From a virus (lineage: Duplodnaviria; Heunggongvirae; Uroviricota; Caudoviricetes): a stretch of DNA of 36,361 nucleotides. This document shows positions 1,127-33,741 of the stretch, piece after piece. The stretch is from the IMG/VR virus record IMGVR_UViG_2579778635_000006; one strand, written 5' to 3'. How positions within the stretch are numbered: position 1 is the stretch's first letter; each line of letters opens with the position of its first letter. Position numbers and translations under genes: made by a program. The notes beneath the pieces are model-generated. The model searched no databases and was not told the DNA's origin. It saw nothing but the letters and a program-made list of their open reading frames with translations.

Positions 1127-3115
1127 TTAAAAAACATTCTTATCCCCGTGGAAAAAACGTGCAACGTTCAATAGCCAGTCGGGGGTTTTTATTTCATTTG
1201 AATTTGCTAGTATTTCTAAATATTTTTCGCAAAATTCATTTTTTTTTCCTGGTAATTCGAAATAATCCTCAATAGCTTTTTTTTCTGTAATGTTAAGATT
1301 CAAAGCGCCTCCCGATACTGAAGACTCCATTAACTGTGGGGTTTCCATAAAGGACAAACTAGTTTCTCCTTTAGTGTAAAGCATTTTCAGAGTTTCTACG
1401 TAGAAATCAGCATTAAGAGACTGCTCAATTTCTGTAGGTGGATAAACTCGATCATCAGTAACTTTAACAAGGCTTATATTAGATAAGTCTTTATCGAGCA
1501 AGAGTCTTCTTATTTTTATACTTGGTATTGTATCTGTAGCATCATATGGACTATATTTGTGATCTGTATCTAATAATAATAATACTTTTCCTGAGATTGT
1601 TGCTTTGCGATCCTCTAACGCCATAACGAGTAAATTATATATTTTTTTTACTGTAGGGGAGCCACCGACGGATAAAACTATTAGTTTCTCAATGTTTTCA
1701 TAATCCAAGTGAGCGGAAATATATTTTCTATCAGTTTTTCCTTCGCACAATATCCAGTTATAATTATTTCCAGATGTTATTGAATAAACAATTGATTGTG
1801 CTAAGTCGTGATTGCTTTTCATTTCTAAAACGTCAAGGTAAGAGCCATTTGACTCTTTTGCTAGTTCCTTTAATTCATCCTTGTAGTTTTCCAGATCGAG
1901 TGCTTTGATGTATGTTTGAGAGGGGGAAATATATATGGCTGTACCTGAGCCTGTAACAGGTAAAAAACCATACCAATGAGTTGTACAAATAGTCTGTATG
2001 CCTAGGTCGCTAATTTTTTTTATTTTATCAAATTGATTAAAACATGATGTGGCATGTAAGGATAATTCAGGTTCATCAACAGCAAGAATTGTTGAGTGCT
2101 GAGATTTTTGTGGATTATGTTTTAAGAAATTGGTAGCAAGATCTAGCAATGCTTTTCTTTTTTCTCCTGAGCTTAAATTTTGCACAGGGGTATCTTTATT
2201 AACATCATCAATATGATGTAATATTTTATCACTAAAATATGATTCAATTATTTTAGATATCATATGACGTTGAGTGAAACTATTTTGTCGCTGAGATGGT
2301 TTTTTAAATTGATATCGCCCCTCAAGCTTTGTAGTTAATTGTCTAATAAAATCATTTAAGTGCGAATTTATTGCTGTAATATCCTTTTTCTTAATGATTT
2401 TACTGATTTTTTGTTGGAGATTTTCACCTAATAAAGACTGTAATAAATCGCTTTCAATCCTTGAGTATTCGGATGTGGTTATTTCTGCAGGTAGGTAAAT
2501 ATAATTATAGATATCCTTAATTGTTATTAATAGCTTAGGTAGTATATTGTTAAAATGATATTTTTTATTATTCGTCGAACTATTTTCATTTGCGAGATCA
2601 TCAATTTGCAATCGATAATCATCTATAGATTCGAAAATTGACATGTAGGGGCGAGGAATATCATTTGCAGTTTCTTTTATTATCCCAAGGGGAATTAATA
2701 AATATTCATCTGAAGAATATTTGTATTCTAGTTGCTTCCTGTGTGATATAAATTTCTCAGCTATAGGACGTTGCAATGTATTAAAAACTTCACTTTCTAT
2801 TTGCCAAGTGATATCGCTTACGATTTCTAATGCTTTGTATAGGGAATTATTTATCTTTAGCTTGTTTTTATTTATTAAATAAATTGGCACAATGAATGGT
2901 TCTCGAGTATCGAAACCTTGACTGCGCGCTTCATTGTTGATATCAAGTCTATTGATATCAGTTTTATTTAGTACAATATCTAATGCTTGTAATATTGAGC
3001 TTTTCCCGACACCATTTTCACCAATGAGCCAAGAGGATTTATTGTTTAAAGTGAGAGGGATATAATGTTGATTTTTGAAATTCTTGAAATTTCGTAAAAT
3101 AACACCAATAATCAT
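1127..3115 (-). CDS. OLD-family ATP-dependent nuclease: N-terminal ABC-type ATPase fused to C-terminal TOPRIM (class-1 OLD or fused AriA-AriB/PARIS-like)
   Basis: 662-aa ORF. Walker A is GENGVGKSS near the N-terminus and Walker B-like is ILAVDEPELSLH. The C-terminal region has the TOPRIM signatures CEGKTD and LLLDTDHK. The gene is visibly AT-rich against the phage backbone and lies between cI and int. Confidence 0.8.
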   Translation of the reverse strand: MIIGVILRNFKNFKNQHYIPLTLNNKSSWLIGENGVGKSSILQALDIVLNKTDINRLDINNEARSQGFDTREPFIVPIYLINKNKLKINNSLYKALEIVSDITWQIESEVFNTLQRPIAEKFISHRKQLEYKYSSDEYLLIPLGIIKETANDIPRPYMSIFESIDDYRLQIDDLANENSSTNNKKYHFNNILPKLLITIKDIYNYIYLPAEITTSEYSRIESDLLQSLLGENLQQKISKIIKKKDITAINSHLNDFIRQLTTKLEGRYQFKKPSQRQNSFTQRHMISKIIESYFSDKILHHIDDVNKDTPVQNLSSGEKRKALLDLATNFLKHNPQKSQHSTILAVDEPELSLHATSCFNQFDKIKKISDLGIQTICTTHWYGFLPVTGSGTAIYISPSQTYIKALDLENYKDELKELAKESNGSYLDVLEMKSNHDLAQSIVYSITSGNNYNWILCEGKTDRKYISAHLDYENIEKLIVLSVGGSPTVKKIYNLLVMALEDRKATISGKVLLLLDTDHKYSPYDATDTIPSIKIRRLLLDKDLSNISLVKVTDDRVYPPTEIEQSLNADFYVETLKMLYTKGETSLSFMETPQLMESSVSGGALNLNITEKKAIEDYFELPGKKNEFCEKYLEILANSNEIKTPDWLLNVARFFHGDKNVF

Positions 3116-10733: not shown

Positions 10734-12131
10734 ATGAAGATGTATGAAGTAATTGATATATCAGCGCAGGAAATTAAGGCGTTGTTAAACACTGCTGAAG
10801 ATCATTTCAATGATTTTAAAAGTAAGCAAATAGCGCCTAATAAATTACAAGAAACTTTTGTAGCATTTGCAAATGCTGATGGCGGTAATATTTATATTGG
10901 CATAGAGGATGCAGCTTCGGGGAGAGAGCGTATATCTGGTTTCAATGAGCCAGAGGAAGCGAATGCTATTATTTCGACCTTATTGGAAAATACTAATCCA
11001 GCTGTTGAGAATGTTGAGGTGGAATATTTAAGAACACCTTCCAATGGATTGATTTTACATGTGGATATACCAAAAAGCCCCAAAGTTCATTACACGGCCT
11101 CTGGCGATTGCTTTATAAGAGCTAACGCGCAAAAATTAAAAATAAAAGGTGAGCGAATTACTCAGCTTTCCTATTCTAAAGGCGCAGAACCTTATGAAAA
11201 AAAAGCAGTGGATATAGTTGAAGTAGAAGATATTCTTGAAAGTGAATATTATTCTGATTATTTACGTAGAATAGGAACGACTCAGTCACCGAGAGTTTTT
11301 TTAAAAAAACAACGACTGTTAACTAAGAAAGATGGTGAATTTGTCCCGAATGTAGGCTGTGTTTTACTATTTGATGAAGAGCCTCAAGGATGTTTAGATA
11401 CTCGATGTGCTGTAAAAGTATATCGGCTTAGAACAACTGAAGCAGAGTACAAACGTGAACAATTACAGGAAGATCCTGTAACGATTGAGGGGCCACTTGA
11501 AGTGGTTATTTTAAATACAATAGCAAAAGTAAAAGAATATGTTGATGGAGCATCATTCAAAGACGGCGAAAATCTAGTAAAACTTAGCTATCCTGCAGAA
11601 GCATTGAAGGAAATATTAGTTAATGCTGTTATTCATAGAGATTACAGCCAAAAGGATGATGTGCACGTAAAAGTTTATGACAACCGGATTGAAGTTCAAA
11701 GTCCAGGCAGATTGCCTGGATACATGACTATTAATAATTTATATGAAGAGCGGTTTTCTCGTAATCCAAATTTAGTGCGTTTGTTGCATAAACTTCCCAA
11801 TCCAGTGAACCATGATATTGGTGAGGGGCTTGATACTGCAAAAAATGAATTGCGTAAGGCCGGGTTGGTAGCCCCGGTATTTGAAGAAAGGGGCAATAAT
11901 TTTGTTGTAATAGTTAAGCATCAAACAATAGCCTCAATTGAGGATGTGATTATTAATTATTTTAAAGAAAATCCAACGGGACAGCTCACAAATAAGTTGG
12001 TTAGACAATTAAGTGGCGAAGATGACCTTCAAAAGGTTAAAAAGGCATTGCAAAAGTTAAGGGAGGAGGGCGTAATAAAACCATTAGATCCTAACGCGAA
12101 TCCTTTCAAATTTAAATATATTAAAGCTTAA
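10734..12131 (+). CDS. AlbA_2 (Schlafen-like) + HATPase_c_4 + C-terminal wHTH protein; candidate defence/exclusion cargo
   Basis: 465-aa ORF with AAGGA upstream. N-terminal AlbA_2-type signature (DFKSK...FVAFANADGGNIYIGIED), central HATPase_c_4-type signature (NAVIHRDY...DNRIEVQSPGRLPG...SRNP), then a helix-rich tail. Strongly AT-rich against the backbone. Followed by a bidirectional terminator. Confidence 0.8.
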   Translation: MKMYEVIDISAQEIKALLNTAEDHFNDFKSKQIAPNKLQETFVAFANADGGNIYIGIEDAASGRERISGFNEPEEANAIISTLLENTNPAVENVEVEYLRTPSNGLILHVDIPKSPKVHYTASGDCFIRANAQKLKIKGERITQLSYSKGAEPYEKKAVDIVEVEDILESEYYSDYLRRIGTTQSPRVFLKKQRLLTKKDGEFVPNVGCVLLFDEEPQGCLDTRCAVKVYRLRTTEAEYKREQLQEDPVTIEGPLEVVILNTIAKVKEYVDGASFKDGENLVKLSYPAEALKEILVNAVIHRDYSQKDDVHVKVYDNRIEVQSPGRLPGYMTINNLYEERFSRNPNLVRLLHKLPNPVNHDIGEGLDTAKNELRKAGLVAPVFEERGNNFVVIVKHQTIASIEDVIINYFKENPTGQLTNKLVRQLSGEDDLQKVKKALQKLREEGVIKPLDPNANPFKFKYIKA

Positions 12132-26359: not shown

Positions 26360-27532
26360 ATGGCTCAGGATTACCACCACGGAGTGCGCGTTGTTGAAGT
26401 CAACGAAGGCACTCGATCCATTACTACGGTGAGCACCGCCATCGTGGGCATGGTCTGCACGGGCGATGATGCCGATGCAAAAATGTTCCCTCTTAATAAA
26501 CCCGTGCTGATCACTGATGTGCTTACTGCCAGCGGTAAAGCGGGTGAGTCAGGTACGCTGGCCCGTTCGCTGGATGCCATCGCTGACCAGGCAAAACCCG
26601 TGACCGTTGTTGTGCGTGTGCCGCAGGGTGAAACGGAAGAAGAAACCACGACCAATATCATCGGCGCAGTGACTGCTGAAGGTAAAAAAACTGGTATGAA
26701 AGCCCTGTTATCTGCCCAGTCACAGCTCGGTGTTAAACCGCGCATTCTCGGCGTGCCGGGGCACGATAACAAAGCCGTTGCTACTGAGTTGCTGGGCGTG
26801 GCGCAAAGCCTGCGTGGGTTTGCTTACCTGTCAGCGTATGGTTGCAAGACGGTGCAGGAAGCAATCACTTACCGTAAAAACTTCAGCCAGCGTGAAGGGA
26901 TGCTGATCTGGCCCGACTTTACTGGCTGGGACACGGTGCTGAATGCCGAAGCAACGGCATATGCCACCGCCCGTGCGCTTGGTCTGCGCGCCAAAATTGA
27001 TGAGCAGACCGGATGGCACAAAAGCCTGTCCAACGTGGGCGTGAACGGTGTCACCGGAATTTCTGCTGATGTATTCTGGGATCTGCAGGACCCGGCAACT
27101 GATGCGGGACTGCTTAACCAGAACGATGTTACCACACTTATCCGCAAAGACGGCTTTCGCTTCTGGGGTTCCCGCTGTCTGAGTGATGACCCACTCTTTG
27201 CCTTTGAAAACTACACCCGCACGGCGCAGGTGCTGATGGACACGATGGCAGAAGCGCCAATGTGGGCGGTCGACAAACCGCTGAATCCGTCGCTGGCCCG
27301 CGACATTATCGAAGGTATCCGCGCCAAAATGCGCAGCCTGATCAGTCAGGGCTATCTCATTGGTGGCGATTGCTGGCTGGATGAGTCGGTGAACGACAAA
27401 GACACTCTGAAAGCTGGAAAACTCACCATCGACTACGACTACACACCAGTGCCGCCACTTGAAAACCTGATGCTGCGTCAGCGCATCACCGATCAGTACC
27501 TGGTGAATTTCGCCAGCCAGGTCAGCGCGTAA
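26360..27532 (+). CDS. FI: Contractile tail sheath protein (P2 gpFI family)
   Basis: 390 aa with AGGAGG upstream; first gene of the F operon. Confidence 0.95.
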
Positions 27533-27541
27533 GGGGACAAC

Positions 27542-28057
27542 ATGGCTTTACCACGCAAATTAAAACACCTGAACCTGTTTAACGACGGGAACAACTGGCA
27601 GGGGATCGTTGAGTCGCTGACGCTGCCGAAATTCACCCGCAAATATGAGAAGTATCGCGGCGGCGGAATGCCGGGAGCAGTGGATGTGGATCTGGGGCTT
27701 GATGACAGTGCGCTGGACACAGAATTTTCCATTGGTGGTACTGAACTGCTGCTGTTTAAGCAGATGGGCAAAGCCACGGTGGATGGCATCCAGTTGCGCT
27801 TTACCGGCTCTATCCAGCGTGATGATACCGGGGAAGTGCAGGCCGTGGAGCTTGTGGTGCGTGGACGTCACAAAGAAGTGGATTCCGGCGAGTGGAAGAC
27901 GGGCGAAAGCAATACCACCAAAGTGACCAGTACCAACAGCTACGCGAAGCTGACTATCAATGGTGAGGTGCTCTATGAAGTGGACCTTATCAACATGGTG
28001 GAAATTGTGGACGGTGTGGACCTGATGGAAGCGCACCGCAACGCCCTCGGCCTCTGA
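27542..28057 (+). CDS. FII: Tail tube protein (P2 gpFII family)
   Basis: 171 aa directly after the sheath gene. Confidence 0.95.
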   Translation: MALPRKLKHLNLFNDGNNWQGIVESLTLPKFTRKYEKYRGGGMPGAVDVDLGLDDSALDTEFSIGGTELLLFKQMGKATVDGIQLRFTGSIQRDDTGEVQAVELVVRGRHKEVDSGEWKTGESNTTKVTSTNSYAKLTINGEVLYEVDLINMVEIVDGVDLMEAHRNALGL

Positions 28058-28111: not shown

Positions 28112-28414
28112 ATGAGCGATAAGCAGACTGAAAAGACCATTCAACTGGATACCCCCATCATGCGTGGTAAAACTGAAATCACCGAAATTGTGCTGCGTAA
28201 ACCGCAGTCCGGTGCGCTGCGCGGTACACGCCTGCAGGCCATTATGGATATGGATGTGAACGCGATGATGACCGTGATCCCCCGCATCTCCAGCCCGGCG
28301 CTGACTGCACAGGAAATTGCAGAGATGGACCCGGCAGATCTCACTGCCATGTCGGTTGAGGTTGTCACTTTTTTGTTGAAGAAGTCGGTGCTTGCCGGTT
28401 TACCGACAGCCTGA
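28112..28414 (+). CDS. E: Tail assembly chaperone E
   Basis: 100-aa ORF between the tube and tape-measure genes. Contains the slippery heptamer T TTT TTG at 28369-28375. Confidence 0.85.
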   Translation: MSDKQTEKTIQLDTPIMRGKTEITEIVLRKPQSGALRGTRLQAIMDMDVNAMMTVIPRISSPALTAQEIAEMDPADLTAMSVEVVTFLLKKSVLAGLPTA

Positions 28415-28548
28415 CGGTTGACGATCTGGTGGCAGATATCGCCACCATTTTTCACTGGCCGCCATCCGTTACTGACGTTATGCCGCTGACCGAAGTGCTG
28501 GAATGGCGGTATAAAGCGATTCAGAGAAGCGGGGCCAACGATGAGTGA
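28112..28548 (+). CDS. Tail assembly chaperone E+E' made by a programmed -1 frameshift at T TTT TTG (28369-28375)
   Basis: The -1 frame is open from the slip site to TGA at 28546-28548 and encodes ...VTDVMPLTEVLEWRYKAIQRSGANDE. This mirrors the known P2 E/E' arrangement upstream of T. Confidence 0.65.
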
Positions 28549-31500
28549 TAATAACCTGCGCCTGCAGGTCATTCTTAATGCGGTTGACAAACTCACCCGC
28601 CCATTCCGTGCTGCACAGGCCAGTTCGAAAGAGCTGGCTGGCGCAATCAGAAACTCCCGTGACGCATTAAAGCAACTCAATCAGGCGGGTAACAGCCTGG
28701 AAAAATTTCGCAAGCTGCAGGCCGATAACAAAAAGTTAGGCGACAGGCTGAACTATGCCAGACAGAAGGCAAATTTGCTTAGTTCTGAGCTGGAAGCGAT
28801 GGAACAACCATCACAAAGGCATCTTGTGGCTTTAGGTCGGCAAACGCTGGCAGTCCAACGCCTGGAAGAACAACAAAAATATTTGCAGAAGCAAACGGCG
28901 CTTGTGCGTGCAGAACTGTACCGGGCGGGAATTTCTGCGAAAGATGATGCGGGAGCAACTGCCCGTTTAGCCCGTGAAACATCACGTTATAACCAGGAAC
29001 TTTCGAAACAAGAGGCGCGGCTGAAGCGACTGGGGGAAGCTCAGCGCAGGATGAATGCGGCGCGTGCCAGTTATGCCCGTTCGCTGGAGGTGCGTGATCG
29101 TATTGCAGGTGCCGGAGCCACCACCACGGCTGCAGGGCTGGCAATGGGCGCACCAGTGATGGCGGCAGTAAAAAGCTATACCAGCATGGAAGATGCCATG
29201 AAAGGTGTAGCAAAGCAGGTCAATGGTCTGCGTGACGATAATGGCAACCGCACCGCGCGTTTTTACGAAATGCAGGATGCCATCAAGGCTGCCAGCGAAC
29301 AGTTGCCGATGGAAAACGGTGCTGTGGACTTTGCCGCACTGGTTGAAGGTGGTGCGCGCATGAACGTCGCAAATCCTGACGACAGCTGGGAAGACCAGAA
29401 ACGTGACCTGCTGGCCTTCGCCAGCACGGCCGCAAAGGCGGCAACAGCCTTTGAGCTGCCAGCGGATGAACTGTCAGAAAGTCTGGGGAAAATCGCCCAG
29501 CTCTACAAAATCCCTACCCGCAATATTGAACAGCTCGGTGATGCGCTGAACTATCTGGATGATAACGCCATGTCGAAAGGGGCAGACATCATTGATGTCA
29601 TGCAACGCCTGGGCGGTGTGGCTGATCGTCTGGATTATCGTAAAGCGGCGGCGCTGGGTTCCACCTTTCTGACACTGGGCGCTGCGCCAGAGGTTGCAGC
29701 CAGTGCAGCAAACGCGATGGTGCGTGAATTGTCCATTGCCACCATGCAAAGCAAGAGTTTCTTTGAAGGGATGAATCTGCTGAAACTCAATCCTGAAGTG
29801 ATTGAAAAGCAGATGACGAAGGATGCGATGGGAACTATCCAGCGTGTGCTGGAGAAGGTGAACGCACTGCCGCAGGACAAGCGTCTGTCTGCCATGACCA
29901 TGTTGTTTGGTAAAGAGTTTGGCGATGACGCGGCGAAACTGGCAAACAACCTGCCGGAACTACAGCGCCAGCTAAAACTGACAGCGGGCAATGATGCGCT
30001 CGGTTCCATGCAGAAAGAATCCGACATCAACAAAGACTCACTTTCCGCTCAGTGGTTGCTGGTCAAAACCGGAGCGCAGAACACCTTCAGCAGCCTGGGC
30101 GAAACGCTGCGCCAGCCGCTGATGGATATTCTGTACACGGTGAAAAGCATCACGGGGGCGTTGCGCCGCTGGGTGGAAGCTAACCCGGAACTGACAGGCA
30201 CACTGATGAAAGTAGCGGCTGTTGTGGCTGCGGTTACCGTAGGCCTCGGCACCTTAGCGGTGGCGCTGGCTGCAGTGCTGGGGCCGCTGGCAGTCATCCG
30301 TCTGGGATTCTCTGTGCTGGGTATCAAAACGTTACCTTCCGTTACGGCAGCAGTAACACGAATCAGCAGCGCGTTGTCCTGGCTGGCTGGCGCTCCACTG
30401 GCACTGCTGCGACGCGGGCTTGCTTCATCGGGCAACGCAGCGGGTTTACTTACTGCGCCGTTGTCGTCTTTGCGCCGCACGGCATCACTGACGGGGAATG
30501 TCCTGAAAACTGTAGTAGGTGTGCCGGTTGCACTGTTGCGGTCTGGATTATCCGGTTTACGTGCTGTTGCTGTGATGTTTATGAATCCACTGGCAGCACT
30601 ACGCGGTGGACTGGCTGCCGCAGGCGCGGTGCTGCGAGTACTGGCATCCGGTCCGCTGGCGATGCTGCGCGTTGCCCTGTATGCCATATCTGGTCTGTTA
30701 GGTGCTCTGCTCAGTCCGATAGGTCTTGTGGTTACTGCACTGGTGGGCGTAGCGCTGGTTGTCTGGAAATACTGGCAACCCATCACCGCATTTCTCGCTG
30801 GTGTGGTGGAAGGATTCAAAGCGGCGGCAGGTCCCATCAGTGCAGCATTCGAACCACTTAAGCCTGTGTTTCAGTGGATTGGCGACAAAGTGCAGGCGTT
30901 GTGGGGCTGGTTTACTGATCTGCTGACGCCCGTTAAGTCGACCTCTGCCGAACTGCAGAGCGCAGCGGCAATGGGGCGACGATTCGGGGAGGCACTGGCG
31001 GAAGGGCTAAATATGGTCATGCATCCGCTGGACTCCCTGAAATCCGGCGTTTCCTGGTTGCTGGAGAAACTCGGCATTGTCAGTAAAGAGGCTGCAAAGG
31101 CGAAACTGCCGGAAAGAGTGACGCGTCAGCAACCTGCGACGGTGAATGCAGACGGTAAAGTGATGATGCCATCGGGTGGTTTTCCATCATGGGGATATGG
31201 CTTTGCGGGGATGTATGACAGCGGCGGGTATATCCCGTGCGGGCAGTTTGGCATTGTCGGTGAAAACGGGCCTGAAATTGTCAACGGCCCGGCAAACGTT
31301 ACCAGCCGGAGAAATACCTCTGCACTGGCTGCGGTTGTCGCCGGAATGATGGGCGTTGCTGCCGCGCCAGCAGAGCTTCCACCGTTACATCCTTTGGCAC
31401 TTCCCGCGAAAGGCGGCGAAGCGATGGTGAGTCGTGCAGCCACTGTGCCGCCCGTTCAACGGATTGAGGCACCGACGCAGATCATCATTCAGACGCAGCC

Positions 31501-31618
31501 AGGACAAAGTGCGCAGGATATTGCGCGGGAGGTGGCCCGCCAGCTTGATGAACGTGAACGCAGGCTGAAGGCAAAAGCCAGGAGTAACTACAGCGATCAG
31601 GGGGGATACGACGCATGA
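28541..31618 (+). CDS. T: Tail tape measure protein (P2 gpT family)
   Basis: 1025 aa, coiled-coil N-terminus and hydrophobic Gly/Ala-rich central region. Confidence 0.95.
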   Translation: MSDNNLRLQVILNAVDKLTRPFRAAQASSKELAGAIRNSRDALKQLNQAGNSLEKFRKLQADNKKLGDRLNYARQKANLLSSELEAMEQPSQRHLVALGRQTLAVQRLEEQQKYLQKQTALVRAELYRAGISAKDDAGATARLARETSRYNQELSKQEARLKRLGEAQRRMNAARASYARSLEVRDRIAGAGATTTAAGLAMGAPVMAAVKSYTSMEDAMKGVAKQVNGLRDDNGNRTARFYEMQDAIKAASEQLPMENGAVDFAALVEGGARMNVANPDDSWEDQKRDLLAFASTAAKAATAFELPADELSESLGKIAQLYKIPTRNIEQLGDALNYLDDNAMSKGADIIDVMQRLGGVADRLDYRKAAALGSTFLTLGAAPEVAASAANAMVRELSIATMQSKSFFEGMNLLKLNPEVIEKQMTKDAMGTIQRVLEKVNALPQDKRLSAMTMLFGKEFGDDAAKLANNLPELQRQLKLTAGNDALGSMQKESDINKDSLSAQWLLVKTGAQNTFSSLGETLRQPLMDILYTVKSITGALRRWVEANPELTGTLMKVAAVVAAVTVGLGTLAVALAAVLGPLAVIRLGFSVLGIKTLPSVTAAVTRISSALSWLAGAPLALLRRGLASSGNAAGLLTAPLSSLRRTASLTGNVLKTVVGVPVALLRSGLSGLRAVAVMFMNPLAALRGGLAAAGAVLRVLASGPLAMLRVALYAISGLLGALLSPIGLVVTALVGVALVVWKYWQPITAFLAGVVEGFKAAAGPISAAFEPLKPVFQWIGDKVQALWGWFTDLLTPVKSTSAELQSAAAMGRRFGEALAEGLNMVMHPLDSLKSGVSWLLEKLGIVSKEAAKAKLPERVTRQQPATVNADGKVMMPSGGFPSWGYGFAGMYDSGGYIPCGQFGIVGENGPEIVNGPANVTSRRNTSALAAVVAGMMGVAAAPAELPPLHPLALPAKGGEAMVSRAATVPPVQRIEAPTQIIIQTQPGQSAQDIAREVARQLDERERRLKAKARSNYSDQGGYDA

Positions 31619-32100
31619 TGATGGTGCTGGGATTGTACGTGTTTATGCTGCGCACCGTGCCGTATCAGGAACTGCAGTATCAACGCAGTTGGCGACATGC
31701 GGCAAACAGCCGGGTAAACCGTCGTCCGTCCACGCAGTTTCTGGGACCGGAAAACGACATGCTGACGCTTTCCGGTGTTCTTATGCCGGAGATAACAGGC
31801 GGCAGGCTGTCGTTGCTGGCACTTGAGCAGATGGCAGAACAGGGGAAAGCATGGCCTCTGATTGAAGGCAGCGGCACGATTTACGGCATGTATGTGATTG
31901 AGGGACTGAATCAGACTAAAACGGAGTTTTTCCGCGACGGTATGCCGCGCCGGATTGAGTTCACCCTGTCGCTCAAACGGGTGGATGAATCCCTGTCCGA
32001 TATGTTCGGTGATCTCAGTGCGCAGCTGAATAATCTGCAGGGAACGGCAACATCTGCCTTAAGCGATATCAGTAAAACGGTGGGAGGGCTTCTGTCGTGA
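31615..32100 (+). CDS. U: Tail protein (P2 gpU family)
   Basis: 161 aa, overlapping the T stop (ATGA). Confidence 0.9.
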   Translation: MMMVLGLYVFMLRTVPYQELQYQRSWRHAANSRVNRRPSTQFLGPENDMLTLSGVLMPEITGGRLSLLALEQMAEQGKAWPLIEGSGTIYGMYVIEGLNQTKTEFFRDGMPRRIEFTLSLKRVDESLSDMFGDLSAQLNNLQGTATSALSDISKTVGGLLS

Positions 32101-33197
32101 ATTTCAGCTCTGAACTGCTTAACAAAGGCAACAAAACTCCGGCATTCAGCATCAGTATTGAAGGCAGGGATATCACCACTGTGCTGGACAACCGCCTGAT
32201 TGGGCTGACGCTGACGGATAACCGGGGATTTGAAGCGGACCAGCTTGATCTGGAGCTGGACGACGCCGATGGAAAAATCGTGCTGCCGCGCCGTGGTGCG
32301 GTCATTACGCTGGCGCTGGGCTGGAAGGGGCAGCCGCTTTTCCCGAAAGGGGCATTCACGGTGGACGAGATTGAACACACTGGCGCACCGGACCGCCTGA
32401 CTATCCGGGCGCGAAGTGCTGATTTTCGGGAAACCCTGAATCCCCGCCGTGAAAAATCGTGGCATAACACCACCATCGGGGAAGTGGTGAAGGAAATAGC
32501 CGCGCGGCACAAGCTGAAGATGGCACTGGGTAAAGAGCTGTCGGATAAGCCCGTGGAGCATATAGACCAGACTAATGAGAGTGACGGCAGTTTTCTGATG
32601 CGACTGGCGCGACAGTACGGTGCCATCGCGTCGGTGAAAAATGGCAATCTGTTATTCATCCGGCAGGGGCAGGGCAAAAGCGCCACTGGTAAACCACTGC
32701 CAGTGATCACTATCACACGCAAGGACGGCGACAGTCACCGATTTACCCTGGCAGATCGCGGAGCCTACACGGGCGTAATTGCCAGCTGGTTGCATACCCG
32801 TGAACCCGCGAAGAAAGAAAGCACCACGGTGAAGCGTAAGCGCAGAACTAAGAAGCAGAAGAAAGAGCCGGAAGCGAAGCAGGGCGATTACCTGGTGGGT
32901 ACGGATGAAAACGTGCTGGTACTTAATCGCACTTATGCCAACCGGAGCAACGCCGAACGGGCAGCGAAAATGCAGTGGGAACGCCTGCAACGCGGCGTTG
33001 CATCATTCTCGCTACAACTGGCGGAAGGGCGGGCAGATCTCTACACAGAAATGCCTGTGAAGGTCAGTGGCTTTAAACAGCCGATAGATGATGCGGAATG
33101 GACCATTACGACTCTGACGCATACCGTCAGCCCGGATTACGGTTTTACGACCAGTCTGGAGCTTGAAGTGAGGATTGATGATTTCGAAATGGAATGA
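32097..33197 (+). CDS. D: Tail protein D (P2 gpD family, late control D)
   Basis: 366-aa ORF with GTG start overlapping the U stop; last gene of the tail operon. Confidence 0.9.
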   Translation: MNFSSELLNKGNKTPAFSISIEGRDITTVLDNRLIGLTLTDNRGFEADQLDLELDDADGKIVLPRRGAVITLALGWKGQPLFPKGAFTVDEIEHTGAPDRLTIRARSADFRETLNPRREKSWHNTTIGEVVKEIAARHKLKMALGKELSDKPVEHIDQTNESDGSFLMRLARQYGAIASVKNGNLLFIRQGQGKSATGKPLPVITITRKDGDSHRFTLADRGAYTGVIASWLHTREPAKKESTTVKRKRRTKKQKKEPEAKQGDYLVGTDENVLVLNRTYANRSNAERAAKMQWERLQRGVASFSLQLAEGRADLYTEMPVKVSGFKQPIDDAEWTITTLTHTVSPDYGFTTSLELEVRIDDFEME

Positions 33198-33529: not shown

Positions 33530-33741
33530 CGTTAAAAAACAGTGCTTCTAACATCATGATTTTAAAAGGCATAAATTTCAGGCAACAAAAAACCCATCAA
33601 CCTTGAACCGAAATGGCGGGGTTGATGGGCTCCACAAAATGGGGACATCAAAGAAAAGCAGTGGCACTAATTAAGACTGATGCCCTGCGGAAAAGTTCTG
33701 CGGTTGTGCAAAAAAATTTCATTTTCAGGGCAACTTCAGTT

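What the first reader, a model, noticed from the sequence alone, without database searches (positions are those of the whole stretch)
28369..28548. Programmed -1 ribosomal frameshift producing the E+E' tail chaperone
The slippery heptamer T TTT TTG lies 40 nt before the E stop, and the -1 frame stays open for 58 codons to a TGA overlapping the tape-measure start. This reproduces the conserved tail-chaperone frameshift of P2 and of lambda G/GT. Annotation pipelines usually miss the extended product.
Basis: partly seen in the sequence, partly recalled or inferred. Interest (0 to 1): 0.4.

Follow-up and report, generated by a model that had tools for sequence, protein, structure and literature searches.

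The report
P2-type tail chaperone frameshift site
This is the well-known programmed -1 ribosomal frameshift that lets a P2-like prophage make two tail-assembly chaperones (E and the longer E+E') from one start codon; it is real but ordinary and already described for phage P2 and its relatives.

Summary
Gene E (28112-28414, 100 aa) carries T TTT TTG at 28369-28375 in the X XXY YYZ phase. The -1 frame then runs 57 codons to a TGA at 28546-28548, inside the tape-measure start (ATGAGTGA). The E part matches Pfam Phage_TAC_7 and the -1 extension matches Pfam Phage_P2_GpE (E = 4e-19). The site lies between the tail tube and tape-measure genes of a P2-like (Peduoviridae) prophage. P2 itself is annotated with this frameshift at the equivalent position. 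An in-phase slippery heptamer followed by a -1 extension of 52-73 codons is present in 15 of 15 diverse phages and in 78 of 80 species-level relatives. Substitutions in the E'-only segment fall mostly on third codon positions of the E' frame. The 449-nt segment also occurs in 997 of 5426 complete E. coli genomes, where the annotation splits E' off as a separate 39-aa gene.

So this is a known mechanism in a known family, of low interest.

One extra point: a Shine-Dalgarno-like string just upstream of the heptamer (GAGGUUGUC here, GAGGUGGUC in most relatives) is held constant at synonymous sites. It is usually the strongest predicted anti-SD binding site in the region, so it may modulate the frameshift. 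This is untested, and I could not check whether it is already published.

The parts
28112..28414 (+). Gene E, the zero-frame tail assembly chaperone (100 aa)
   Evidence: ORF. Pfam PF10109 Phage_TAC_7 scores 66.4 bits against a cut-off of 25, and PHROG 103 'tail protein' gives 7.9e-44. The homologue in 4LV2017 is annotated 'P2 gpE-like tail protein'.
28358..28366 (+). Shine-Dalgarno-like string GAGGUUGUC (GAGGUGGUC in most relatives), ending 2 nt before the heptamer; a possible modulator of the frameshift
   Evidence: It is the strongest predicted anti-SD duplex in -240..+170 around the site: -10.3 kcal/mol against a mean of -2.75 in the window. The same holds in 27 of 31 clusters below 90% nt identity and in P2, 186, YenM and Acidovorax phages. 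It is held constant at synonymous sites: GAG 30:1 against a background of GAA 134: GAG 32. Its function is inferred, not tested.
28369..28375 (+). Slippery heptamer T TTT TTG in X XXY YYZ phase of E
   Evidence: It is identical to the annotated P2 frameshift site. It is conserved in phase in 15 of 15 diverse phages and 78 of 80 species-level loci.
28375..28548 (+). E' segment: -1 frame, 57 codons plus TGA. The predicted product E+E' is join(28112..28375, 28375..28548), 145 aa
   Evidence: Translation. Pfam PF06528 Phage_P2_GpE scores 68.2 bits against a cut-off of 23, and PHROG 1756 covers residues 3-57. Substitutions are enriched at third codon positions of this frame.
28429..28548 (+). The stretch that pipelines annotate as a stand-alone 39-aa 'GpE family phage tail protein' (GTG start); judged an annotation artefact of the E' frame
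   Evidence: PGAP and GenBank annotations of near-identical loci. It has the weakest SD of seven neighbouring starts, -2.5 kcal/mol. An invariant Asp of the fusion lies upstream of it. The start codon is not conserved in Vibrio, Mannheimia and Acidovorax relatives.
28541..31618 (+). Gene T, tail tape measure protein (1025 aa); its ATG overlaps the E' stop (ATGAGTGA)
   Evidence: ORF. Pfam PF10145 PhageMin_Tail at 1.9e-18. Homologues are annotated as tape measure protein.
27542..28057 (+). Gene FII, tail tube protein, immediately upstream (context)
   Evidence: Pfam PF04985 Phage_tube at 8.8e-60.

Best explanation
The window carries a P2-like (Peduoviridae, Elveevirus-like) prophage. Its tail operon reads sheath, tube, E, E', tape measure T, U, D.

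Most ribosomes translating E terminate at 28412-28414 and make the 100-aa chaperone E. A minority slip back one base on U UUU UUG. At that moment tRNA-Phe sits on UUU in the P site and tRNA-Leu on UUG in the A site, and both re-pair to UUU UUU. These ribosomes then read GUU GAA GAA... in the -1 frame to the TGA at 28546-28548. The product is a 145-aa E+E' protein that shares E's first 88 residues.

By homology with P2 gpE and gpE+E', and by analogy with lambda gpG and gpGT, the two proteins act together as tail assembly chaperones for the tape measure protein encoded immediately downstream. The frameshift sets their ratio.

Shown here: the sequence anatomy, the homology of both frames, and the evolutionary conservation of the site and of the -1 frame. 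Inferred: that slippage really occurs in this prophage, how efficient it is, and what the chaperones do.
For: (1) Anatomy.

(2) Both frames hit the two P2-specific Pfam families above the gathering thresholds. PF10109 covers residues 9-88 and ends exactly at the slip codon. PF06528 lies in the -1 extension at 4e-19. PHROGs 103, 1756 and 6416 agree.

(3) tblastn of the 145-aa fusion finds 427 phage records, 387 of them covering at least 80% of the query; almost every listed hit aligns as two pieces, as expected for two reading frames. Among them is P2 AF063097, annotated with gpE, gpE+E' (join) and 'site of -1 translational frameshift'.

(4) An in-phase X XXY YYZ heptamer at the equivalent place and a -1 extension of 52-73 codons occur in 15 of 15 diverse phages. 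The heptamers are TTTTTTG x11, TTTTTTT x2, GGGAAAG and AAATTTT. The same holds in 78 of 80 loci from different bacterial species.

(5) In the E'-only segment, 10-13 of 15-20 substitutions against relatives of 82-88% nucleotide identity (plus one, L016, at 79% amino-acid identity) fall on third codon positions of the E' frame. In the dual-coding overlap 28376-28414 the Fels-2, SEN8 and MLG42 lineages show no substitution at all.

(6) An invariant Asp (fusion residue 105) and the conserved V-D/E-D motif lie upstream of the only candidate internal start. That start has the weakest SD of the neighbouring genes.

(7) Gene context is sheath, tube, tape measure, GpU, GpD.

(8) Literature: P2 shifts at TTTTTTG and yields E (91 aa) and E+E' (142 aa) (PMC3091744). 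E' lacks a ribosome binding site and overlaps T (PMC3931495). The lambda G/GT ratio is critical for tail assembly (PMC5009743).
Against: There is no expression or protein data for this prophage, so frameshifting is inferred from homology. U UUU UUG ends in a 'heterogeneous' UUG codon, a class that is less shift-prone than UUU or UUC in E. coli reporters (PMC4066793). No conserved downstream stimulatory structure was found. Efficiency is therefore probably low and cannot be predicted. The primary P2 paper (Christie et al. 2002) and Xu et al. 2004 were not in the held library, so I cite them only through secondary sources.
Confidence: 0.93

Rival explanations
1. E' is an independent small gene (39 aa, 'GpE family phage tail protein') translated from the GTG at 28429, as PGAP and many GenBank records annotate it. 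No frameshift is needed.
For: Annotations of near-identical loci list it this way. The Pfam PF06528 model begins exactly at that residue. P2, KS5 and Smp131 have ATG at the equivalent codon.
Against: Its SD pairing (-2.5 kcal/mol) is the weakest of seven neighbouring starts, which range from -4.0 to -11.0. The codon is Tyr or Ile in the Vibrio, Mannheimia and Acidovorax relatives, while the heptamer is retained. Residues upstream of it in the -1 frame are conserved, including an invariant Asp. PHROG 1756 aligns from residue 3 of the extension. For P2, E' is reported to lack a ribosome binding site and E+E' is the annotated essential product (PMC3931495).
Confidence: 0.04
2. The shift into the E' frame is made by RNA polymerase slippage on the T6 run. 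One extra U is added to a fraction of transcripts, giving ...TFFVEE..., and the ribosome does not slip.
For: The site is a homopolymer of 6 T (7 T in the Kapieceevirus and Smp131 lineages). Slippage products would be nearly indistinguishable at the protein level. One IMG/VR relative has T8 and an in-frame fusion, which shows that the run is prone to length change.
Against: The run is always in the X XXY YYZ phase of E, which transcriptional slippage does not require. Distant homologues use the non-homopolymeric heptamers G GGA AAG and A AAT TTT at the same place. Six residues is short for efficient slippage (my own knowledge). The P2 site is annotated and cited as translational (PMC3091744).
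Confidence: 0.03
3. The two-frame arrangement is a sequencing error or a pseudogenising indel in what is really a single E-E' gene.
For: One relative (L016, IMG/VR UViG_2734481921) has the two parts fused in one frame through a T8 run.
Against: The two-frame layout, with the E stop 43 nt after the heptamer, recurs in nearly all of the 78 species-level loci. The segment is found in 997 complete E. coli genomes. The 11 curated or annotated phage genomes fetched, P2 among them, show the two-frame layout with their own heptamer-to-stop distances.
Confidence: 0.005

Closest known systems
Bacteriophage P2 gpE / gpE+E' (FETUD tail operon; Christie et al. 2002, cited via PMC3091744 and PMC3931495; GenBank AF063097)
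   Same: The heptamer TTTTTTG is the same and sits in the same phase. The E' extension is 57 codons in both, and in both its stop overlaps the T start. The position between FII (tube) and T (tape measure) is the same. The Pfam families PF10109 and PF06528 are the same. tblastn identity is 48% over 96% of the fusion.
   Different: E here is 100 aa against 91 aa in P2, because the zero-frame stop lies 43 nt rather than 25 nt after the heptamer start. The tape measure is 1025 aa, whereas P2 gpT is shorter. The upstream SD-like string is GAGGUUGUC here and AAGGUGGUC in P2.
Elveevirus / Felsduovirus prophages (Klebsiella phage 4LV2017, Escherichia phage Cartapus, Salmonella Fels-2, SEN8, RE-2010)
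   Same: Nucleotide identity across E/E' is 86-99%, with an identical heptamer, identical spacing and identical E' length. The Fels-2 record already notes that gpE+E' forms by translational slippage.
   Different: Nothing mechanistic differs. This window is one more copy. The E/E' segment is 100% identical to E. coli PA45B.
Phage lambda gpG / gpGT tail assembly chaperones (Levin et al. 1993; Xu et al. 2004, 2013, 2014, cited via PMC5009743)
   Same: [quoted passage not shown] It gives a short abundant product and a rare extended product whose ratio matters for tail assembly.
   Different: No sequence similarity was detected: Pfam returns only PF10109 and PF06528. Lambda uses G GGA AAG and belongs to a siphovirus, which has no sheath. 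The binding partners of P2-type E' are not established.
E. coli dnaX -1 frameshift (A AAA AAG with upstream SD-like stimulator and downstream hairpin)
   Same: Both have an X XXY YYZ heptamer ending in G, preceded by a conserved sequence complementary to the 3' end of 16S rRNA (PMC5009743).
   Different: Here the SD-like string ends 2 nt before the heptamer (its GAGG core ends 7 nt before). In dnaX the gap is 10 nt, and the stimulatory range quoted is 9-14 nt (PMC5009743) or 8-11 nt (PMC6321510). No conserved downstream hairpin is present. The shifted product is longer than the zero-frame product, not shorter.

Membership tests
P2-type gpE / gpE+E' frameshifted tail assembly chaperone pair | Zero-frame product belongs to the gpE chaperone family (Pfam PF10109 Phage_TAC_7) | tested here: met
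   66.4 bits against a gathering score of 25, over residues 9-88; PHROG 103 at 7.9e-44.
P2-type gpE / gpE+E' frameshifted tail assembly chaperone pair | The -1 frame extension belongs to the E' family (Pfam PF06528 Phage_P2_GpE) | tested here: met
   68.2 bits against a gathering score of 23, matching the full 37-position model; PHROG 1756 at 1.8e-22.
P2-type gpE / gpE+E' frameshifted tail assembly chaperone pair | Slippery X XXY YYZ heptamer in phase with E, near its 3' end, at the position homologous to the P2 site | tested here: met
   T TTT TTG at 28369-28375. It aligns with the annotated P2 site. It is conserved in 15 of 15 diverse phages and 78 of 80 species-level loci.
P2-type gpE / gpE+E' frameshifted tail assembly chaperone pair | Located between the tail tube gene and the tape measure gene, with the E' stop overlapping the tape measure start | tested here: met
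   Phage_tube at 27542-28057 and PhageMin_Tail at 28541-31618. ATGAGTGA overlap. The same overlap is seen in P2.
P2-type gpE / gpE+E' frameshifted tail assembly chaperone pair | The E' frame is under purifying selection as coding sequence | tested here: met
   Third-position bias of substitutions in 28415-28545, 10-13 of 15-20 per lineage. Conserved motif DD.xADIAxIFHW across lineages with 32-48% identity.
P2-type gpE / gpE+E' frameshifted tail assembly chaperone pair | The E+E' fusion protein is actually produced by ribosomal slippage, and both products are needed for tail assembly | not testable with these tools
   Known for P2 only through annotation and secondary citations (PMC3091744, PMC3931495). 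No data exist for this prophage.
Lambda gpG / gpGT family | Sequence homology to lambda gpG / gpT | tested here: not met
   A Pfam scan at E <= 0.01 returns only PF10109 and PF06528. PMC3931495 states there is no amino-acid similarity between the P2 and lambda pairs. The resemblance is functional and positional only.
dnaX-type SD-stimulated -1 frameshift signal | SD-like sequence upstream of the heptamer, complementary to the 16S 3' end | tested here: met
   It is the strongest anti-SD duplex in the region in the window (-10.3 kcal/mol) and in 27 of 31 clusters. Synonymous-site constraint is shown.
dnaX-type SD-stimulated -1 frameshift signal | Spacing of 9-14 nt (PMC5009743) or 8-11 nt (PMC6321510) between the SD and the slippery site | tested here: inconclusive
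   The GAGG core ends 7 nt before the heptamer and the extended duplex ends 2 nt before it. Aligned to the 16S register, the site is about 2 nt closer than in dnaX (my inference). A closer, E-site-adjacent SD is reported to attenuate -1 PRF (PMC6321510), so the sign of any effect is unknown.
dnaX-type SD-stimulated -1 frameshift signal | Conserved downstream stem-loop 5-9 nt after the heptamer | tested here: not met
   Folding the 50 nt downstream gives z = -0.58 in the window and z between +0.4 and -2.4 in 13 relatives, with no common structure. One compensatory change supports a 6-bp stem, 28384-89 paired with 28402-07, in a single lineage only. PMC3091744 also reports no hairpin in P2, KS5, KS14 or KL3.

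The most novel reading that the evidence does not exclude
The P2-type E/E' frameshift signal may not be a bare heptamer. A Shine-Dalgarno-like sequence of up to 9 nt lies immediately 5' of the slip site: GAGGUGGUC, pairing with 16S 3'-CUCCACUAG-5', or GAGGUUGUC in this window. It is conserved at synonymous sites across enterobacterial P2-like elements, P2 and 186 included. It may tune (stimulate or attenuate) the E: E+E' ratio through mRNA-rRNA pairing, at a spacing shorter than the classical dnaX optimum. I found no mention of this in the papers I could read.
Probability: 0.4. Interest if true: 0.3.

Novelty: already known. Interest (0 to 1): 0.12.

Why it matters
It matters mainly for annotation. 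The same segment sits in about 18% of complete E. coli genomes (997 of 5426). There it is annotated as two separate genes, a 100-aa 'phage tail assembly protein' and a spurious 39-aa 'GpE family phage tail protein'. The correct annotation is E plus a 145-aa frameshift product, join(28112..28375, 28375..28548). A correct join gives the true proteome of these prophages and of P2-derived tailocins.

Biologically it adds nothing new to the P2 / lambda paradigm. The conserved SD-like element upstream of the heptamer is a small, cheaply testable lead on how the chaperone ratio is set.

Tried and rejected
(1) Downstream stimulatory structure. The 80-nt fold 28376-28455 had z = -2.88, but most of this comes from a GGUGGC/GCCACC hairpin at 28429-28447, about 54 nt downstream, which is a by-product of the A-D-I-A codons. 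The 50 nt directly downstream give z = -0.58, and no common fold appears in 13 relatives. The 161-nt fold gives z = -0.84. Rejected as a conserved feature.

(2) A pairing that encloses the slip site, AGGUUGUC (28359-66) with GACAGCCU (28405-12). It exists in this window, but relatives with GAGGUGGUG do not compensate for it (my reading). Rejected.

(3) NCBIfam gave no hit for E, E' or the fusion.

(4) No solved structure matches by sequence.

(5) A single-protein scan of IMG/VR returned only relatives with 96-97% identity, apart from one locus (L016) at 79%. It was of little use for covariation, but it revealed the T8 and TTTTTTA variants.

(6) The primary papers (Christie 2002, DOI and PMC135442) are not held.

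(7) Structure prediction and the large protein-database searches were not run, because the Pfam, PHROG and tblastn evidence was already decisive.

Full report
**Observation.**
- An ATG-initiated ORF runs 28112..28414 (100 aa).
- Codons 86-88 are ACT TTT TTG, so TTTTTTG at 28369-28375 sits in the X XXY YYZ phase of that ORF.
- From 28375 the -1 frame is open for 57 sense codons and ends at TGA 28546-28548.
- That stop overlaps the ATG (28541) of a 1025-aa ORF, as ATGAGTGA.
- The first base of the heptamer is 43 nt before the first base of the zero-frame stop.

**Is it more than chance?** The motif alone is not.
- TTTTTTG occurs 17 times in the window on both strands against 10.8 expected from shuffles.
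- About 6% of in-frame positions in long ORFs of this window have a -1 frame open for at least 57 codons.
- A loose mechanical filter (ORF of at least 80 codons, any X XXY YYZ heptamer within 120 nt of its stop, -1 frame continuing at least 30 codons past that stop) passes six sites.
- The other five passing sites were not pursued. By their coordinates (my reading of the ORF list), two lie in alternative frames inside the replication gene A. One is the G-rich Shine-Dalgarno of gene U at the end of T.

What separates 28369 from the rest is homology and conservation.

**What the two frames encode.**
- The 100-aa product matches Pfam PF10109 (Phage_TAC_7, 'tail assembly chaperone proteins E, or 41 or 14') at 66.4 bits against a cut-off of 25. 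The match spans residues 9-88 and ends exactly at the slip codon.
- The 57-residue -1 translation matches PF06528 (Phage_P2_GpE) over the whole 37-position model, at 68.2 bits against a cut-off of 23 (E = 4e-19).
- PHROGs 103 (E) and 1756 / 6416 (E') agree. PHROG 1756 aligns from residue 3 of the extension, that is, from just after the heptamer.
- NCBIfam has no model for either part, and no solved structure matches by sequence.

**Context.**
- The flanking genes are tail sheath (26360-27532), tail tube FII (27542-28057), tape measure (28541-31618, PhageMin_Tail), GpU (31615-32100) and GpD (32097-33197).
- Further out lie ogr, integrase, CI repressor, Dam methylase and replication protein A.
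- The tail block is 97% identical to Klebsiella phages Kp4845-2 and 4LV2017 (Peduoviridae, Elveevirus).
- The 449-nt E/E' segment is 100% identical to the E. coli PA45B chromosome. Matches occur in 997 of 5426 complete E. coli genomes, mostly at 95-99% identity.

So the window is a P2-like prophage in an enterobacterial chromosome, next to rybB, ybjL and ybjM.

**Comparison with P2 and other relatives.**
- tblastn with the predicted 145-aa fusion finds 427 phage records, 387 of them covering at least 80% of it. Almost every listed hit aligns as two pieces, as expected for two reading frames.
- The P2 record AF063097 annotates gpE, gpE+E' (a two-piece join, 'shares amino terminus with gpE; -1 frameshift; essential tail protein') and a misc_feature 'site of -1 translational frameshift'.
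- A script applied to the window and 14 further loci from diverse Peduoviridae found, in every one, an in-phase X XXY YYZ heptamer near the end of E and a -1 extension of 52-73 codons. The hosts were Escherichia, Salmonella, Klebsiella, Yersinia, Burkholderia, Stenotrophomonas, Mannheimia, Vibrio, Shewanella and Acidovorax. A fifteenth locus, the unannotated Ralstonia L007, was fetched but not included in the script.
- The extension carries the motif DD.xADIAxIFHW. The heptamers are TTTTTTG in 11 loci, TTTTTTT in 2, GGGAAAG in the Mannheimia phage and AAATTTT in Xuanwuvirus.
- In a scan of one genome per bacterial species, 78 of 80 loci (49-95% protein identity) have the in-phase heptamer: TTTTTTG 72, TTTTTTA 4, TTTTTTC 1, other 1. 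The remaining two loci were not inspected. One is a partial match starting at query residue 50, and the other is a short match at a contig end.
- In these loci the distance from heptamer to E stop is almost always 43 nt, and in most of them the E' stop overlaps the tape-measure ATG.

**Selection on the E' frame.** Compared with lineages of 82-88% nucleotide identity and one at 79% amino-acid identity, 10-13 of the 15-20 substitutions in the E'-only segment (28415-28545) fall on third positions of the E' frame. In the 39-nt segment where both frames are coding (28376-28414), the Fels-2, SEN8 and MLG42 lineages have no substitution at all. Both patterns are what a translated, dual-coding arrangement predicts.

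**Mechanism.** The best explanation is the classical tandem-slippage model. With tRNA-Phe on UUU in the P site and tRNA-Leu on UUG in the A site, both re-pair one base back on UUU UUU. Decoding then resumes at GUU (28375-28377) and yields ...VVTFL|VEEVGACR..., a 145-aa E+E'.
- Secondary sources for the P2 experiments state that the shift occurs at TTTTTTG and gives E (91 aa) and E+E' (142 aa) from one start (PMC3091744).
- They also state that E' lacks a ribosome binding site and overlaps T (PMC3931495).
- For the analogous lambda pair, the G:GT ratio of about 30:1 is critical. G binds the tape measure while the T part recruits the tail tube protein (PMC5009743).

**Rivals.**
- *Independent initiation of E' at GTG 28429*, as PGAP and many GenBank records annotate it. 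Four results speak against it.
  - Predicted SD pairing there is -2.5 kcal/mol, the weakest of seven neighbouring starts (-4.0 to -11.0).
  - The codon is Tyr or Ile in the Vibrio, Mannheimia and Acidovorax relatives, which keep the heptamer.
  - An Asp that is invariant across twelve lineages lies two codons upstream of it.
  - PHROG 1756 extends to the slip site.
- *Transcriptional slippage on the T6 run.* It would not need the strict X XXY YYZ phase seen everywhere, and it cannot serve G GGA AAG or A AAT TTT in distant homologues.
- *A sequencing or pseudogene indel.* It is excluded by the recurrence of the layout in hundreds of genomes.

**Stimulatory elements.** A conserved downstream structure is not supported.
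- The 50 nt after the heptamer fold no better than shuffles in the window (z = -0.58). Thirteen relatives share no common fold.
- A 6-bp stem (28384-89 with 28402-07) has one compensatory change, in one lineage only.
- The z = -2.88 of the 80-nt fold is due mainly to a hairpin 54 nt downstream that coincides with the A-D-I-A codons.
- This agrees with the literature statement that P2, KS5, KS14 and KL3 lack such hairpins (PMC3091744).

Upstream there is a signal I did not expect. The three codons before the E-site codon are GAG GUG GUC in most relatives and GAG GUU GUC in the window (28358-28366).
- Among 31 clusters below 90% nucleotide identity, the Glu codon is GAG 30:1. Glu codons elsewhere in the same E genes are GAA 134 : GAG 32.
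- The next Val is GUG in 23 of 27 clusters (background 42%), and the next is GUC in 22 of 30 (background 23%).
- Nominal Fisher p values are 4.5e-17, 2.4e-5 and 1e-7. They ignore shared ancestry.
- GAGGUGGUC can pair with the 16S 3' tail (3'-CUCCACUAG-5') over 9 positions, with one G.U pair.
- P2 (AAGGUGGUC) and 186 / YenM (AAGGUGAUU) keep the pairing with different bases.
- In a sliding scan from -240 to +170, this is the strongest predicted anti-SD binding site in the window (-10.3 kcal/mol against a mean of -2.75). The same holds in 27 of the 31 clusters and in P2, 186, YenM and the Acidovorax phage.
- The strong site is absent in the Smp131, Vibrio, Mannheimia and Xuanwuvirus lineages, and it is weak and not top-ranked in the KS5, Shewanella and 3LV2017 phages.

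Internal SD-like sequences stimulate -1 frameshifting when placed 9-14 nt (PMC5009743) or 8-11 nt (PMC6321510) upstream of the slippery site, and attenuate it when next to the E site (PMC6321510). Sharma et al. searched 6-17 nt upstream (PMC4066793). Here the GAGG core ends 7 nt before the heptamer and the extended duplex ends 2 nt before it. I therefore cannot say whether the element would raise or lower shifting. It is a plausible modulator, is untested, and may already be described in papers I could not read.

**Comparison with what is known, and verdict.** Every defining feature of the P2 gpE / gpE+E' pair that can be tested computationally is met. This locus is one more copy of a known element, with relatives of 86-99% identity already in GenBank, and the Fels-2 record even notes the slippage. 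The lambda G/GT comparison is valid as an analogy only; no sequence similarity was found (PMC3931495).

Novelty is 'already known' and interest is low (0.12). The only mildly new point is the conserved SD-like element. I give it a probability of about 0.4 of being a real modulator of the frameshift, with modest interest if true.

Noticed in passing
window 28358-28366 (and the homologous position in L002, L003, L015, L103-L182): A Shine-Dalgarno-like string immediately 5' of the slippery heptamer (GAGGUUGUC here, GAGGUGGUC in most relatives) is conserved at synonymous sites. It is the strongest predicted anti-SD binding site in the region in 27 of 31 sequence clusters and in P2 and 186. It may modulate the frameshift.
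   Followed up: partly
L016 (IMG/VR UViG_2734481921_000002), about 640-650: This relative has a T8 run instead of T7G, which puts E and E' in one continuous frame (...LFFVAEVGAC...). It is either a homopolymer sequencing error or a mutant prophage that makes only the fused product.
   Followed up: no
L081, L109, L116, L117, L122 (heptamer position): These loci carry the heptamer variant T TTT TTA, and L168 carries T TTT TTC, in place of T TTT TTG. The T6 run and its phase are kept, but the A-site codon varies.
   Followed up: no
window 28429-28548; L102 6318-6437 (E. coli PA45B): RefSeq PGAP and many GenBank phage records annotate E' as a free-standing 39-aa 'GpE family phage tail protein' from a GTG with almost no SD, not as a join with E. 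The same segment matches in 997 of 5426 complete E. coli genomes, and the dozen records listed all carry this split annotation.
   Followed up: yes
window 28376-28414: The 39-nt stretch where the E and E' frames overlap has no substitutions in the Fels-2, SEN8 and MLG42 lineages, which differ by about 12% elsewhere. This is as expected for dual coding.
   Followed up: partly
window 28429-28447: A perfect 6-bp hairpin GGUGGC-AGAUAUC-GCCACC coincides with the conserved A-D-I-A codons of E' (GAT ATC is itself a palindrome). It is probably a by-product of the protein motif and is too far (54 nt) from the slip site to act on it.
   Followed up: partly
window 31600-31606: G GGG GGA lies in X XXY YYZ phase 16 nt before the stop of the tape measure gene, with the -1 frame continuing into gene U (164 codons). 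It is most likely just the G-rich Shine-Dalgarno of U, but formally it would allow a T-U fusion.
   Followed up: no
window 33584-33662 (- strand): An RybB sRNA gene (Rfam RF00110, 105 bits) lies about 80 nt beyond the end of the prophage ogr gene, followed by ybjL (aspartate:alanine antiporter) and ybjM. The prophage's right end therefore abuts rybB. The att site was not mapped.
   Followed up: no
window 1127-3115 (- strand): A 662-aa ATPase sits between the integrase and the CI repressor. It matches AAA_15 / AbiEii-type domains and the PADLOC models AriA (2.3e-23) and Old (1.5e-17). It is probably a P2 old-like anti-phage cargo gene.
   Followed up: partly
window 10734-12131 (+ strand): A 465-aa protein with Schlafen AlbA_2 and HATPase_c_4 domains lies between the replication and the packaging/head genes. 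It gives weak partial PADLOC hits to pAgo-associated models. It may be a further moron or defence gene.
   Followed up: no
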